Shown here one piece after another: positions 18,001 to 27,000 of a stretch of 64,000 nt of DNA. The position numbers were made by a program. Each line of letters opens with the position of its first letter. Position 1 is the first letter of the stretch. This stretch comes from Pseudomonadaceae bacterium (lineage in GTDB: Bacteria; Pseudomonadota; Alphaproteobacteria; UBA2136; UBA6156): positions 149,695 through 213,694 of the forward strand of contig JACKLD010000012.1 of NCBI GenBank assembly GCA_024236095.1, in the 5' to 3' direction.

Positions 18001-21000
18001 GGTTCGACAAAAACCGCGTCTTGTTGGAAAGCCGCGCCGAAATGCCGGAAAGCTGCTCCCACCGCCCCTGCGCATGGCTTTGGCTGCCCATGCTCTTGAT
18101 GTTCTCCAGCGCATAAATGGTTTCCACCAAATGGCCGTGTTTCATGTCCAGCTCTTTCGAGACCTCGCGGGTCAGCCCCATCATCGGCCCCTGCACCACG
18201 GCGGAAATCACCAAAATCAGCGGCACCGCCACCAGCGGCACCAGCGCAATGCTGCCCCCCAGCAACGCAATCACGCCGATAAACATGAACAAAAACGGCA
18301 CATCCACCAACGTCACCAACGTGCTGCTGGTAAAGAAGTCGCGCAGGCTGTCATAGTCGCGCAACTGGTTGGCAAACGCCCCGGCGCTGATACGCCCTTC
18401 GCCCAGCCGCAGGTTCAACAGCTGTTGGTAAATCTTGCTTCCCAGCAAAATATCGGCCCCCTTCCCCGCCACATCGAGGAAATACACCCGCAACTGCTTG
18501 AAAATCGCATCGAACACGTAGGCAATCGCCACCCCCAACGCCAGCACCCACAAGGTCTCGTAGGCATGGTTGGGTACCACGCGGTCGTACACATTCATCA
18601 CGAACAGCGGACTGGCCAGCGCCACCGTGTTGATCACCAACGCCGACACCAACACCTTGTTGTACAATGGCCTGAACTGCCGCACCGTGGCCCAGAACCA
18701 CTGCTTCTTGGGGTCGCGGGCCTCGGCGGTCATTTCTCCCACCATCCCCTGCCGCACCAAAATCAGAAAACCGCCATACACCTTGTCAAATTCTTCCAAC
18801 GTCTCAAAACGCTGCTCTTCGCCGGTATAGGTATCCAGTACAGCAAAGGCGCCCGTGCGGGTATCACCGTCTTCTCCCACCGTGCGCTCCAGCAAGATCA
18901 CACTGCGGCCGCTGGCCATCATCGCCACGGCAGGCAACACATGGGGAGAAATATCCTCGGCCTTGCGCTTCACCACCCGGCTGGCCAAGCCTGCCTGCGT
19001 GGCGGCACGGGTAAACAATTGCGGCGTCAGACGGCTCTTCACCAACGGCAAGCCGTTCAACAGGCTGGTCAGGGTGGTGTTGATGCGATAACGCTTCAGA
19101 AAGAACAGCAGACAGCCCTGCAAGCTATCTTGGCTATCGGCCTGCAACGGAGCAACGGACGTGGCGGAGGAGGGCTGGTTCATGGCTTCTTGTTCTTGCG
19201 TTGCAATCTTTATATAAGCAGATGCCCGCCCACGGTAGCCCACATGATGGCAAAAGCGGCGGCCCTGCGCCCTTTCCGCCACGAAGCCCCTTCTCCTGCA
19301 TAAATTTTTTGCTTGGGGGTGTCATAAAATTGTCAGGAACCCCTTGCATACAATTGACATCCCTCCTATATGTGTATGCAAGTCGCACTGGCACTTGCGT
19401 CAACCGCCAGACGACAAACAGAGGGAGAAACCTTTATGAACACCCGTACCGCAGCCCTGTTGGGTCTTGTCATTTCCGCCGCCAACGCACAAAGCGCGCT
19501 GGCCCTTTCCATGCAAGAGGCCATGGCCAAGGCCATCGCCACCCACCCGGAAGGCTTGGCCGCTGAAAAGAACCAGGCTGCCATCGGCCACCAAATCGAC
19601 ATTGCCAAGGGCGGTTACCTGCCCACCGTCGACCTGACCGCCGGTACCGGTTGGGAGAACTCCACCAACCCCTCCACCCGTTTCCGTGCGGGCCGCGGCC
19701 CCGGCGACAAGCCCAGCCGCGACCTGTGGCGCAACGAAAGCCGCCTCACCGTGCGCCAGATGATCTGGGACGCCCACCAGACCAAATACCGTGTGGCCCA
19801 GCAGACCAGCCGCTTTGAAAGCGCCGCCTTCAACGTGGCCGACGTGAAGAACCAACTGGCCCTGCGTGCCGCCGAAAGCTACCTCAACGTGCTGCGCACC
19901 GCCGAGCTGGTGGCCCTCTCCGAGCAAAACCTTGCCAAGCATAACGAATACGTCGGCAAAATCGCCGACCGCAAGGCCGGTGGCCGTGCCGCCGGTGCCG
20001 ATATCAAGCAGGCCGAAAGCCGCCGCGAGCTGGCCGAAGCCAACCTGATCGCCGCCAAGGGCCAACTGCGCGAAGCCGAAGCCGACTATCTGGAAGTGGT
20101 GGGTGAGATGCCCAACGCCCCGGTGAAGGACGCCACCCCGTTCGGCGTGCTGCCGGCCGACACCGCCAGCGCCATCGCCCGCGCCATGGACAACAGCCCG
20201 GTCATCGCCAACGCCAAGGCCAACATCAAGGCCGCCAACGCCGAGCTGGCCGAGGCCGCCTGCCCGTTCTGCCCGCGCCTGGAAGCCGAGGGCGGTATCT
20301 CCCGCAACCATAACCTCGACGGCGTGCAAGGCGTGAACCACGACATGACCGCCATGCTCTACCTGCGCCAGAACCTTTACAACGGCGGCCGCGACGTGGC
20401 CCAACGCAAAGAGCGCCTGGAACGCGTCAGCGAAGCCACCGACATGCTGGAAGGCCAACGCCGCCTGGTAGAACAGGCCGTCATCAAGGCCATGGCCCGC
20501 ATGGACAGCGCCAAAAACCGCCTGACCCCGCTGACCAACAGCGTGGAAGCCGTCACCTCCACCCGTGACGCCTATCAAACGCAATTCAACCTCGGCCAAC
20601 GCAGCCTGCTGGACCTGCTGGACAGCGAAGTGGAGCTGTTCAACGCCAAGGCCGCGCTGATCAACGGCAAATACGACCTCGACGCCGCCGCCTACGCGGT
20701 GCTGGCCAACATGGGCGAGCTGGTGGTGAGCGACCACAGCATGGTTGTGGCCGCCAACTAAGGCCCCGACCCCCGCAAGGTTTGCGTGTGCGGGGGCTTG
20801 CAAAAGCCCCCCTCGCGTACCACATAAGTGGAAAGTGTTAACGGCAACCAACCTGCCGACCAACGATAAGGAACCCGCACCATGGCCAACCAAACGCCCG
20901 AAACCCTCGCCTCCGTGCCCACCCCGCAAGTGGACGGCCAGCAATTGGCGATGAACACCGCCCATGCCGAGACCATCACCGGCAAGCCGGTGGAAAACGT

Positions 21001-24000: not shown

Positions 24001-27000
24001 CGGTCAGGTGGTCTTTACACCGGCCTCCGGCTTTACCGGTACCGCCACCTTCACCTACACCGTGAAGGACAGCTGCGGCGCCACCGATACCGCCACGGTC
24101 ACGGTCAACGTCACCAACACCCCGCCGGATGCCCGCGACGACAACGCTGGCACCATTCCGGCCGGCGGATCCGTCACCACCAACGTACTGGCGAACGACA
24201 CCGATGCCGAATGCACCCCCGGCATCCACGTCATCTCGGCCACGGCCAACCCGGCCCAAGGTACGGTGACGGTCAACGCCGACAACACCATCACGTTCCA
24301 CGCGGCAACCGGTTTCAGTGGCACCGCCACCTATACCTACACCATTGCCGATGGTTGCGGCGGCACCGACACCGCCACGGTCACCGTGGTTGTGGAAGCG
24401 GCGCCCCCGCCGCCCCCGCCTCCCCCGCCGGTGAGCCCGATCGTCATCGACCTGAACGGCGACGGCATCCACACCATTGCGGCCGCCGACAGCCATGCGC
24501 AGTTCGACCTGTTTGCCGACGGCACCCCCGAGCACACCGCATGGTTCAGCGGCAACGACGGGATTCTGGTCCGCGATGAGAACGGCGACGGCATCATCAA
24601 CGACATCAACGAGATGTTCGGAACCGACAACCCCGACAGCAACGGCTACGAAACCCTGCTGGCCGAGATGGACAGCAACGGCGATGGCGTCATCGATGCC
24701 AATGACGAAGGCTTCGAACAACTCCAACTGTGGGTGGATGCCAACGAAGACGGCGTCACCGACGCGGGCGAGCTGCACAGCCTTGCCGACTTCGGCATCG
24801 TCAGCATCAACGCCACCCCCGTGGCCGACTACAACCAGCTGACCGATGACAGCTTCATCAGCCATACCAGCACCGTCACGCTGGAAGACGGCAGCACACT
24901 GGAAAGCGCCGACGTGTGGTTCCACACCGCCAACGACGCTACCATGGATACCGTGCTCAACGGCGGCAACGAAGGCGACAACGTGGCCGATGCCGCTGCC
25001 ATCCCCGCCACCGACAACGGCGGTGATGCAGGCTACACCGGTACGCTGGGCGGCGAACAACTGGTTGTGGACGCCCCGCAACCGGTGCTTCACGACTAAG
25101 TGCTCACACGCAAGGGGGGTCAAGGGGGCGAAAGCCCCCTTGCGCCGTTAGGCGTCATTCCAAGGAGCACGGCCCACGGGAAGAGAGAATACCCCCAACA
25201 TCTCCGCCGCGCGCAACTTGGAACCCAGCTCAGGTGCATCACAAGGCCCACAAGCAAACCCAAGTATTCCCCACATGACTCACTTCTTTTTGCTTGCCAA
25301 GCCGCCAACATCTTGGCATAAGGCGGCTGAAGCGCAGGGCACCCCCCTGCCCTCACCTGCTTGCGGCATGGGGCCGTGGGCGAATCCTTCCTCCATGCAG
25401 GAAGGGGAACCAAAGGAAGGAGTGACGCCCATGGCGTTTTACGAACTGACCTACGTGCTGCGGCCCGACGTGCCGACCCAACACGTGGATGCCACCACCA
25501 ACAAGGTGACCGACGCGATCAAAAAGGCCAAAGGCAAGGTGGTGAAGACCGAACAGTGGGGCCTGCGCACGCTGGCCTATCCCATCAAGAAGCACAAAAA
25601 AGGCTACTACACCATGCTGGGCCTCTCGATGCCCGGTGAAGGCCTCGCCGAAGTGGAAAACATGCTGAAGCTGTCGGAAGACATCATCCGTTTCATGACC
25701 GTGAAGGTGGAAGACCTCGGCAAGGAACCCAGCGCGATCATGAAGGCCAAGGCCCGCGAAGCCGCCGCCGAAGATTTTGCCGCCTAATTCAAAGATTCTG
25801 TAAGGAGATACCACCATGGCAATGGAACAACCCCAAGCCCCGCGCAAGAAATTCGCGGGCAAAGACCGCGCCGAAGGCGACAGCAAAGGCGGCCGCTACC
25901 AACCCAAACTGCTGGGCAAGGCCTACTTCCAGCGCAAGAAGGGCTGCCCGTTTTCCGGCCCCAAGGCGCCGAAGATCGACTACAAGGACGTGCGCCTTCT
26001 GCAACGCTACCTCAGCGAATACGGCAAAATGCTGCCCCGCCACACCACTGGCGTGTCGGCCATCAAGCAACGTGAGTTGGCCACCGCCATCAAGCGCGCG
26101 CGCATGTTGGCCCTGCTGCCGTTTGCCGCCACGGTGAGCGAGAAAGACGAACGCCGCGCCCAACGCGCCCGCGAACGCGGTCCTAGCGACCGTACCGACC
26201 GCGCGCCCCGCGCCCCCCGCAACCAAGATGACGCCGCCAAGGCCGAGTAAGGGAGAGATATCATGGCAAACATGCAAGTGATTCTGCTGGAAGGCCTGCA
26301 CGGCATCGGCCGCGTGGGTGAAGTGGTGAAGGTAAAGGCCGGCTTTGCCCGCAACTACCTGCTGCCGCGCAAACTGGCACTGCTGGCCAACAAGGACAAC
26401 GTGGCCGAAGTTGAGAAGCAAAAGGCCGAACTGGAGGCGAAAAACAACGCCGCCAAAACCGAGGCGACCAAGCAGGCCGCCAAGTTTGAAGGCCTGACGC
26501 TGGTGCTCAGCCGTCACGCGTCTGAGACCGGCCAACTGTACGGCAGCCTTAAGGCCCGCGATTTCGCCGAAGAGCTGTCCCGCAAGAACCTGAAGGTGGA
26601 AGCCAGCCAAGTGCTGCTGACCGACTCGGTGAAGGCGGTGGGCGACCACAGCATCCGCGTGGCCCTGCACCCCGAGGTGGTGGTGACCGTGCCGGTAACC
26701 GTGGAACGCCAAACCGATATGTAAAATAGCGTTTCTATATTAGTATGTTAGATGATAGAAATGGGCCCTTCGGGGCCCTGTTTATTAAAAAACCGCCTTG
26801 CATAGCCCCTTACGCCGAAGGCGTCATTCCAGCCCCGCCAAGCCGAAGCAACGGCGGATGATAGACAGCTGGAACCCAATGCCCATCGTGCATGTTCCCG
26901 TACAAAAATCGTTGGCCTGCGATGGCCCTTGCAATTTCCCACCCCCGCCCCATACCCTCTCCATGCTCAAACGCCTCACCACCTTCCTCCGCCCCGCTGC

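What the first reader, a model, noticed from the sequence alone, without database searches (positions are those of the whole stretch)
20882..25099. Adhesin has candidate di-alanine LapG sites, paired cysteines in a T1SS substrate, and a non-RTX calcium region
Two (P/V)AAG motifs lie near the N-terminus: VAAGP at aa 40-44, and EPAAGP at aa 150-155 just after a ~100-aa beta-rich segment that could be the TolC-plugging retention module. Either could be the LapG cleavage site. Several of the ~97-aa repeats contain closely spaced Cys pairs (SCGVVCGHS, CVSAICGCG, AVCDCAP, TVCGTP, DGCGASD and others), which is atypical for type I substrates that fold extracellularly and are usually Cys-poor. The C-terminal ~230 aa after a Pro9 linker carry four DxNGDG(I/V)xD EF-hand/dockerin-like loops instead of GGxGxD RTX nonapeptides.
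Basis: partly seen in the sequence, partly recalled or inferred. Interest (0 to 1): 0.6.

Follow-up and report, generated by a model that had tools for sequence, protein, structure and literature searches.

The report
Lap-type adhesin with unusual ends
This gene encodes a large surface-anchoring protein of a known, protease-releasable kind, but its anchor, its calcium-folding tail and its cysteine pattern across repeat junctions all differ from the textbook examples.

Summary
It is a type I-secreted cadherin-like adhesin in a conserved operon with TolC, ABC, HlyD, a LapG-like protease and a degenerate HD-GYP receptor homologous to DvhD of Desulfovibrio.

- **LapG site:** PAAG 151-154 is conserved in 16 of 17 orthologues, just after a confidently predicted beta domain (aa 62-140). 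It is the likely LapG site. VAAG 40-43 lies in a window-specific insertion and is chance.
- **C-terminal calcium region:** this is neither dockerin nor a new fold. It is homologous to the FrpC self-processing module (PDB 6sjw, E 1e-27). Ser replaces the scissile Asp, so I predict calcium-triggered folding without cleavage.
- **Cysteines:** they are not noise. Cys at repeat position 11 of repeat n always co-occurs with Cys at position 75 of repeat n+1. This holds at 11 of 11 junctions in three proteins. It points to inter-repeat disulfide staples, which would be unusual for a type I substrate.

Verdict: a new variant of a known kind, of moderate interest. Cleavage, disulfide state and calcium-dependent folding are all untested.

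The parts
20882..25099 (+). Adhesin gene, 1405 aa (NCBI MCP5404790.1, annotated only as 'tandem-95 repeat protein')
20999..21010 (+). VAAG aa 40-43: not conserved, lies in a window-specific insertion of the disordered leader (aa 1-60); judged chance
21065..21301 (+). N-terminal beta domain aa 62-140, the presumed periplasmic retention plug; a rare family distinct in sequence from the LapA retention module
   Evidence: AF2 pLDDT 81-93; only 12 cluster representatives in 1.84 billion (one is the window protein itself, P0001); no NCBIfam, Pfam or PDB sequence match; weak fold hits only
21332..21343 (+). PAAG aa 151-154: predicted LapG cleavage motif, scissile bond A152-A153
   Evidence: P151, A152 and G154 invariant and A153 in 15 of 16 aligned orthologues; fits the [T/A/P]AAG consensus (PMC13090378)
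21344..21571 (+). Conserved but disordered segment aa 155-230 (GGF..P.I.G.G.G....V.S.VIGPFAIP), the presumed stretch that threads the TolC channel
   Evidence: pLDDT below 55; conservation; role inferred from the Lap model
21572..24403 (+). Ten cadherin-like / Big_9 repeats (aa 231-1174) carrying 20 Cys at repeat positions 11, 13, 28 and 75
24404..24430 (+). Pro9 linker aa 1175-1183
   Evidence: the same linker is in P0013, P0014 and L002
24434..24919 (+). SPM-like calcium-folding domain aa 1186-1346, preceded by S1185 at the position of FrpC's scissile Asp414
   Evidence: PDB 6sjw E 1.3e-27 with the alignment starting at P1186; residue map; PF26745 in homologues
24920..25096 (+). Acidic 59-aa tail ending VLHD, the presumed T1SS secretion signal, with one degenerate RTX-like turn (GGNEGDNV)
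   Evidence: tail similar to P0013 and P0014; no remnant of a longer C-terminal domain after the stop
19370..20761 (+). TolC-family outer membrane protein
   Evidence: TIGR01844 275 bits
16997..19282 (-). T1SS ABC permease/ATPase, LssB type
   Evidence: TIGR03375 856 bits
15506..16996 (-). HlyD-family T1SS adaptor
   Evidence: TIGR01843 360 bits
14867..15502 (-). LapG-like BTLCP cysteine protease with a signal peptide and a GDCED calcium/active-site motif
   Evidence: PF06035 74 bits; PDB 4u65 and 4fgo; sequence
13089..14861 (-). DvhD-like transmembrane receptor: periplasmic dCache-like domain plus a degenerate HD-GYP domain (HD replaced by SA, HH by MY), no PAS
   Evidence: PDB 9rbz/9rc0 E 2e-33 and 9rc2 E 3e-6; sequence; PMC13090378

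Best explanation
The gene encodes the cargo adhesin of a Lap/Dvh-type surface-attachment switch in an uncultured bacterium.

**Export (inferred).** The protein leaves C-terminus first through the adjacent ABC/HlyD/TolC type I system.

**C-terminal fold.** Outside the cell, millimolar calcium folds the C-terminal domain. That domain is homologous to the FrpC self-processing module. I infer that it takes the role RTX repeats usually play as folding nucleus and ratchet. Ser replaces the scissile Asp, so it should fold without cutting itself.

**Stalk.** Ten cadherin-like repeats form the stalk. Cysteines at position 11 of one repeat and position 75 (plus 13 and 28) of the next probably oxidise into inter-repeat disulfide staples.

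**Anchor.** The N-terminal beta domain (aa 62-140) folds before it can pass TolC and plugs the channel. This leaves the adhesin tethered, with aa 155-230 threaded through the pore.

**Release (inferred by analogy).** When c-di-GMP is low, the degenerate HD-GYP receptor frees the periplasmic LapG-like protease. The protease cuts between A152 and A153 of the conserved PAAG and releases the adhesin.

**Shown here:** homologies, synteny, motif conservation, predicted folds and cysteine covariation. **Inferred:** cleavage, plugging, calcium-driven folding, disulfide state and c-di-GMP control.
For: Operon and its conservation:
- TolC, ABC (LssB type), HlyD, LapG-like and HD-GYP genes lie beside the adhesin.
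- The same arrangement occurs in 12 or more alphaproteobacterial MAG loci.
- The N-terminus has no hydrophobic signal.

Protease and receptor:
- The LapG-like protein matches solved LapG structures 4u65 and 4fgo.
- The receptor matches DvhD structures 9rbz/9rc0 at E 2e-33 and shares the loss of the HD and HH metal ligands.
- DvhG and LapG cut at the di-alanine of [T/A/P]AAG after the retention domain (PMC13090378).

Cleavage site and anchor:
- PAAG 151-154 is conserved (P151, A152 and G154 invariant) across orthologues that are 26-52% identical in this region.
- AF2 gives a confident beta domain at aa 62-140 flanked by disorder.

C-terminal domain:
- It matches the FrpC self-processing module at E 1.3e-27.
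- All four calcium loops, W451 and W519, G477 and G491 are kept.
- The module is disordered without calcium (PMC7078468).
- D414A abolishes cleavage in FrpC (PMC7846742).
- Ser or Thr before the Pro is the majority state, in 63 of 89 homologues.

Cysteines:
- Positions 11 and 75 pair across junctions at 11 of 11 informative junctions in three proteins, with no singletons.
- The seven-strand model puts position 11 at the C-terminal pole and positions 28 and 75 at the N-terminal pole.
- The repeats have cadherin-like fold matches.
Against: - The window protein lacks 13 aa of the helix that precedes PAAG in orthologues. That helix helps LapG dock in other systems.
- One orthologue has PAEG.
- The protein has no RTX repeats and no recognised T1SS C-terminal domain, although several orthologues have both.
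- Cys-Cys distances could not be measured because model coordinates are not exposed.
- The cysteine covariation could partly reflect duplication of two-repeat units.
- A type I substrate has no dedicated oxidase outside the cell.
Confidence: 0.7

Rival explanations
1. The cysteines are not disulfide staples. They are free thiols, metal ligands (CxxxCxH, CxC) or lineage-specific drift carried along by repeat duplication.
For: - Most orthologues have 0-1 Cys, so cysteines are dispensable for the fold.
- Motifs such as CGVVCGH and CDC resemble metal sites.
- The alternating pattern could arise from duplicating a two-repeat unit.
- T1SS substrates bypass the periplasmic Dsb machinery.
Against: - There are no singletons at positions 11 and 75 in 11 informative junctions across three proteins with different repeat numbers.
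- All 20 repeat cysteines sort into even groups per junction.
- The predicted topology places the partners at facing poles.
- The positions are conserved between the window and L001 despite about 40% divergence.
Confidence: 0.25
2. The C-terminal module does process itself at or next to S1185-P1186, for example by an N-to-O acyl shift. This would release the tail and create a reactive end.
For: - The residue before the Pro is almost always a nucleophile: T, S, D or C in 82 of 89 homologues.
- In four orthologues it is the only Cys of the whole protein.
- The fold that strains this bond is conserved.
Against: - The known mechanism needs the Asp carboxylate to attack its own carbonyl, and D414A is dead.
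- The D478 equivalent is missing.
- A Ser side chain attacking its own carbonyl would need a four-membered ring.
- No report of Ser/Thr-Pro cleavage was found.
Confidence: 0.08
3. VAAG 40-43 is the LapG site, or a second one.
For: It has a di-alanine followed by Gly-Pro, like the downstream site. Two [TAPV]AAG in the first 200 aa is rare by chance (P about 0.005).
Against: - The motif sits in an insertion absent from every orthologue, including the closest.
- Val is outside the [T/A/P] consensus.
- It lies upstream of the plug domain, so cutting there would not release the adhesin.
Confidence: 0.05
4. The protein is a freely released exoprotein, or a decaying gene that has lost its secretion domain, rather than an anchored, regulated adhesin.
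For: It lacks RTX repeats and the VCA0849-type C-terminal domain that several orthologues keep. The helix before PAAG is shortened.
Against: - The reading frame is intact with high GC3.
- The short tail is shared with independent relatives P0013 and P0014, and no remnant follows the stop.
- L012 and P0012 also have short tails.
- The whole operon, including protease and receptor, is conserved.
Confidence: 0.08

Closest known systems
Dvh system of Desulfovibrio vulgaris (DvhA / DVU1545 adhesins, DvhG protease, DvhD receptor; PMC13090378)
   Same: - A T1SS adhesin with an N-terminal beta retention domain, then a helix, then a [T/A/P]AAG site.
- A BTLCP protease.
- A transmembrane receptor with a periplasmic dCache-like domain and a degenerate HD-GYP domain (best PDB match, E 2e-33).
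   Different: - The protease here is soluble with a signal peptide, like LapG. DvhG is membrane-tethered by a long linker.
- The receptor lacks the PAS domain.
- The adhesin ends in an SPM-like domain, not a serralysin-like domain.
- The host is alphaproteobacterial by its relatives, not a sulfate reducer.
LapA / LapG / LapD of Pseudomonas fluorescens
   Same: The logic is the same: an adhesin plugged in TolC and released by a calcium-dependent periplasmic protease under c-di-GMP control, with a di-alanine site after the plug.
   Different: - There is no GGDEF-EAL LapD.
- The retention module belongs to a different sequence family.
- There are no RTX repeats.
- The adhesin has 23 cysteines.
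Self-processing module of Neisseria meningitidis FrpC (PDB 6sjw, 6sjx; PMC7078468)
   Same: There is clear sequence homology over about 160 aa. The four EF-hand-like calcium loops, both stabilising Trp residues and the opening Pro-x-x-x-Asp-Leu are the same.
   Different: - Ser replaces the scissile Asp414, and the D478 ligand is absent.
- The module is terminal, followed by 59 aa, not internal ahead of an RTX block.
- The host protein is an adhesin, not an FrpC-like exoprotein.
Cadherin-like extender repeats of RTX adhesins and SraP (PDB 6xi1, 4m00)
   Same: Tandem beta-sandwich repeats of about 95 aa with acidic calcium-binding junction loops (Foldseek E 1e-7 to 1e-9).
   Different: The junctions here carry covarying cysteine pairs. 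In those repeats position 75 of the DGNGGTD loop is Cys instead of Asn.

Membership tests
Lap/Dvh-type anchored T1SS adhesin | Encoded beside a dedicated ABC / MFP / TolC type I system, with no Sec signal | tested here: met
Lap/Dvh-type anchored T1SS adhesin | A BTLCP (LapG-like) protease and a c-di-GMP receptor encoded in the locus | tested here: met
   PF06035; PDB 4u65 and 9rbz matches; conserved synteny
Lap/Dvh-type anchored T1SS adhesin | An N-terminal folded retention domain followed by a [T/A/P]AAG motif | tested here: met
   AF2 beta domain aa 62-140; PAAG 151-154 conserved
Lap/Dvh-type anchored T1SS adhesin | Retention module of the LapA sequence family (the NCBIfam 'retention module-containing protein' model; model name and accession recalled from memory) | tested here: not met
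   No such hit at E <= 0.01; family profile finds nothing in PDB sequences; only 12 relatives by exhaustive phmmer
Lap/Dvh-type anchored T1SS adhesin | Cleavage at the di-alanine by the cognate protease, and surface retention | not testable with these tools
   Needs biochemistry
RTX protein | Tandem GGxGxDxUx nonapeptides ahead of the C-terminal signal | tested here: not met
   Zero GGxGxD; no RTX-repeat family among the Pfam or NCBIfam hits; only one degenerate turn, GGNEGD
FrpC-type self-processing module | Sequence homology with four EF-hand-like loops and the W451/W519 pair | tested here: met
   E 1.3e-27; residue map
FrpC-type self-processing module | A scissile Asp-Pro bond at the module's N-terminus | tested here: not met
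   S1185-P1186
FrpC-type self-processing module | Transient fifth calcium site formed by D414, D478 and D579 | tested here: not met
   The equivalents are S, T and D
FrpC-type self-processing module | Calcium-dependent autocleavage and Asp-Lys cross-linking | not testable with these tools
   Needs biochemistry
DvhD-type c-di-GMP receptor | An HD-GYP domain lacking the HD and HH metal ligands but keeping GYP | tested here: met
   SA and MY at those positions, with DGSGYP kept
DvhD-type c-di-GMP receptor | A periplasmic dCache domain and a cytoplasmic PAS domain | tested here: inconclusive
   The periplasmic part matches 9rc2 at E 3e-6. The HD-GYP alignment starts right after TM2, so there is no PAS
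Dockerin | Paired 22-aa dockerin repeats (Pfam Dockerin family) | tested here: not met
   No dockerin family among the Pfam hits at E <= 0.01. The loops belong to the SPM-like domain

The most novel reading that the evidence does not exclude
The calcium-triggered module at the distal tip of these anchored adhesins may be a family of chemical warheads in which the residue before the Pro sets the chemistry.

Among the orthologues that residue is Asp, Cys, Ser or Thr. In four of them it is the only Cys in 1460-1819 aa. Asp-Pro members such as P0003 would clip off their tail and bond covalently to a surface amine. Cys, Ser and Thr members, including this window's protein, would carry out a related but undescribed acyl-shift or thiol reaction.

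Together with the inter-repeat disulfide staples, this would make the protein a covalently reinforced, covalently attaching adhesin exported by a pathway thought to avoid cysteine.
Probability: 0.1. Interest if true: 0.8.

Novelty: new variant of a known kind. Interest (0 to 1): 0.5.

Why it matters
- **Reach of the Dvh design.** The HD-GYP receptor plus LapG-type protease design was characterised only in 2026, in sulfate reducers. Here it appears in uncultured Alphaproteobacteria, in a leaner form.
- **Blind spot in screens.** Lap-type adhesins can be built with a different plug domain and without RTX repeats. The screen as I recall it (RTX repeats plus a TAAG-like motif within about residues 70-150; not re-checked here) would miss them.
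- **A module in a new setting.** A domain known for calcium-triggered self-cleavage sits at the tip of an anchored adhesin. Natural Asp, Cys, Ser and Thr variants at the reactive position form a ready-made series for asking what that position does.
- **Cysteine covariation.** It gives a specific, cheap test of whether type I substrates can use disulfides to stiffen a stalk.

Tried and rejected
- The word-indexed homologue search with the N-terminal 235 aa found nothing. With the family profile it found only two proteins.
- The family profile against PDB sequences found nothing.
- The afdb50 fold library was unavailable, so the plug could not be compared with predicted LapA-type retention modules.
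- An exact look-up of the protein's contig failed. The cluster look-up gave only the NCBI accession and label.
- The first three-repeat alignment for structure prediction mis-registered overlapping segments. I replaced it with non-overlapping segments.
- Model coordinates are not returned, so Cys-Cys distances could not be computed. I used strand order instead.
- I considered a truncated or frameshifted C-terminus and rejected it. There is no remnant after the stop, and the same tail occurs in relatives.
- I considered same-repeat pairing of positions 11 and 75 and rejected it. L012 never has both in one repeat.
- The promoter and terminator scan gave nothing above background.

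
Full report
**1. What is at the coordinates**

The plus-strand ORF 20882-25099 encodes 1405 aa. It has the high third-position GC of real genes in this 60% GC window. The longer minus-strand ORF across it is Gly/Ala/Val/Arg-rich and I judge it a high-GC artefact; it was not scanned against any domain library.

- VAAG at aa 40-43 and PAAG at aa 151-154.
- 23 Cys.
- Pro9 at aa 1175-1183.
- Four acidic loops at aa 1190, 1232, 1264 and 1286.
- No GGxGxD.

Pfam and NCBIfam find ten Big_9 / Cadherin_5 / tandem-95 repeats. 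They find no RTX-repeat family, no T1SS C-terminal target domain and no retention-module family. The protein is NCBI MCP5404790.1, annotated only as 'tandem-95 repeat protein'.

**2. Context**

Directly upstream on the same strand is a TolC-family gene (19370-20761). Divergent from it are four genes:
- an LssB-type T1SS ABC transporter (16997-19282)
- a HlyD adaptor (15506-16996)
- a Peptidase_C93 / LapG-like protease (14867-15502)
- a 590-aa HD-GYP protein (13089-14861)

A genome scan with the ABC protein returned 15 loci from uncultured Alphaproteobacteria MAGs. tblastn shows the same gene set and order wherever the contig is long enough.

The protease matches the solved LapG structures 4u65 and 4fgo. 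It has a signal peptide and the GDCED calcium/active-site motif.

The HD-GYP protein's best PDB matches are 9rbz and 9rc0 (E 2e-33). Its periplasmic part matches 9rc2 (E 3e-6). These entries are named only 'HD domain/sensory box protein'; I infer they are the DvhD structures of Font et al. 2026 (PMC13090378). That paper showed DvhD is a non-catalytic c-di-GMP switch that lacks the HD and HH metal ligands. The window protein has SA and MY at those positions and keeps DGSGYP. It has no PAS domain.

So this is a Lap/Dvh-type attachment switch.

**3. The LapG site**

A [T/A/P]AA[G/V] in the first 200 aa arises by chance in 17% of shuffles, so the motif alone proves little. Conservation decides the question. 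I assembled 17 orthologous N-termini from the loci and from an exhaustive phmmer search. That search found only 12 cluster representatives among 1.84 billion.

- **PAAG 151-154.** P151, A152 and G154 are invariant, and A153 is present in all but one (PAEG in P0006). The surrounding identity is only 26-52%. The motif follows a conserved module (Y.VVVKAP..GGMLAYLVGPGA ... GNLRI ... LLLDY) and, in most orthologues, a helix-like LPAQQLLAAL stretch. This matches the published layout of retention domain, targeting helix and [T/A/P]AAG.
- **VAAG 40-43.** It lies in an insertion unique to the window protein, inside a variable leader. It is upstream of the plug, so cutting there could not release the adhesin.

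AF2 with 11 family members gives a confident beta domain at aa 62-140 (pLDDT 81-93). Residues 1-60 and 145-222 are disordered.

The domain has no sequence relation to the LapA retention-module model or to any PDB sequence. Fold searches gave only weak hits. I treat it as a functional analogue from a different, rare family.

The window protein has lost 13 aa of the pre-site helix, which may weaken protease docking.

**4. The C-terminal calcium region**

[quoted passage not shown] The alignment starts exactly at Pro1186, which corresponds to FrpC Pro415.

W451, W519, G477 and G491 are also conserved.

FrpC cuts its Asp414-Pro415 bond because the Asp side chain attacks its own carbonyl on a calcium-strained amide (PMC7078468). 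D414A abolishes this (PMC7846742). The window protein has Ser1185 at that position and lacks the D478 ligand. I therefore predict no FrpC-type cleavage.

Homologues carry the precomputed Pfam label PF26745. In the 89 homologues where the junction is visible, the residue before the Pro is Thr in 36, Ser in 27, Asp in 16, Cys in 3, Pro in 3 and another residue in 4. Ser/Thr-Pro is therefore the common state and the self-cleaving Asp-Pro type is a minority.

The SPM is unfolded without calcium. The most economical role for it here is the one RTX repeats normally play: staying unfolded in the cell and folding on emergence.

The 59-aa acidic tail ends in VLHD. It resembles the tails of the relatives P0013 and P0014, and nothing resembling a lost secretion domain follows the stop. 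Several more distant orthologues (L002, L004, P0003, P0006, P0007) do carry an RTX-like turn and a longer C-terminal domain that I judge by eye to be of the VCA0849 T1SS type (not tested against the model), after the module.

**5. The cysteines**

RTX-type substrates typically have no Cys or one (PMC6891781), and so do most orthologues here. The window protein has 23, L001 has 9 in 470 aa at the same positions, L012 has 7 and P0012 has 6.

I mapped every Cys onto an HMM of the repeat. The results are:
- **Window.** Cys at position 11 of repeat n is always accompanied by Cys at position 75 (the DGCG loop) of repeat n+1, and never occurs without it. This holds for r1-r2, r3-r4, r5-r6, r7-r8, r8-r9 and r9-r10.
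- **L012.** The rule holds for r3-r4, r5-r6 and r8-r9, and all its other repeats are Cys-free.
- **P0012.** The rule holds for r1-r2 and r3-r4.
- **Total.** That is 11 of 11 informative junctions with no singletons. Matching sets by chance would be 1/210, 1/84 and 1/6 respectively. Duplication of two-repeat units weakens the independence of these figures.
- **Second pair.** Position 13 of repeat n pairs with position 28 of repeat n+1 at three window junctions.
- **Accounting.** All 20 repeat cysteines fall into even groups.

The AF2 model of r8-r9 is confident (pLDDT 93) and has seven alternating strands per repeat. The turn after strand 1 (position 11) therefore sits at the C-terminal pole. 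The loops after strands 2 and 6 (positions 28 and 75) sit at the N-terminal pole, so they face each other across a junction. Foldseek places the repeats with cadherin-like modules, where these same elements meet at the calcium-binding junction.

I could not measure distances because coordinates are not returned. The inference is inter-repeat disulfide staples.

Three more Cys (48, 62, 130) lie in and before the plug domain and are shared with L001.

**6. An unexplained pattern among orthologues**

In L002, L004, P0006 and P0007 the only cysteine in 1460-1819 aa is the residue before the module's Pro. L012 also has Cys there, P0003 has Asp and P0012 has Thr.

A position that accepts only D, C, S or T, and that is the sole Cys in otherwise Cys-free giants, suggests more than a passive structural role. 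I found no literature on it.

**7. Verdict**

The object is a Lap/Dvh-type adhesin, which is a known kind, with three variant features:
- a different plug family
- an SPM-like, non-RTX calcium domain at the tip
- covarying junction cysteines

None of the mechanistic steps has been tested experimentally.

Noticed in passing
L002, L004 (loci); P0006, P0007 (proteins): In four orthologues the only cysteine in 1460-1819 aa is the residue immediately before the first Pro of the SPM-like module. L012 also has Cys there, P0003 has Asp-Pro, P0012 has Thr-Pro and the window has Ser-Pro.
   Followed up: partly
window 13089-14861 (-): The DvhD-like receptor has no PAS domain; the HD-GYP domain follows the second transmembrane helix directly. 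It also carries a Lys/Ala/Pro-rich N-terminal extension of about 60 aa.
   Followed up: partly
window 24434-24919 and orthologues: The residue equivalent to FrpC D579 is Asp in the Ser/Thr-Pro members and Ser/Thr in the Cys-Pro and Asp-Pro members. There are only ten sequences, so shared ancestry may explain it.
   Followed up: no
L002, L004, P0003, P0006, P0007 versus window, L012, P0012, P0013, P0014: Orthologues differ in what follows the SPM-like module. Some have an RTX-like turn plus a longer C-terminal domain that looks like the VCA0849 T1SS type (by eye). Others have only a short acidic tail.
   Followed up: partly
window 21344-21571: The predicted disordered stretch after the cleavage motif is well conserved (GGF..P.I.G.G.G....V.S.VIGPFAIP...D.I). 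This hints at a specific contact, perhaps inside the TolC channel.
   Followed up: no
window 21260-21331: The window protein lacks 13 aa of the helix that precedes PAAG in the other orthologues. One orthologue (P0006) has PAEG instead of PAAG.
   Followed up: no
window 20792-20811 and 25124-25139: Similar GC-rich hairpins (GGGGGCTT-GCAA-AAGCCCCC and GGGGGC-GAAA-GCCCCC) flank the adhesin gene. Neither has a T-run.
   Followed up: no
whole window: GC skew is negative across all 64 kb (-0.08 to -0.27). NCBI labels the source MAG Pseudomonadaceae, but every operon relative found is an Alphaproteobacteria MAG.
   Followed up: no
window 21023-21027, 21065-21067, 21269-21271: Three cysteines (C48, C62, C130) lie in and just before the periplasmic plug domain and are shared with L001. 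The C130 column is also Cys in P0012.
   Followed up: no
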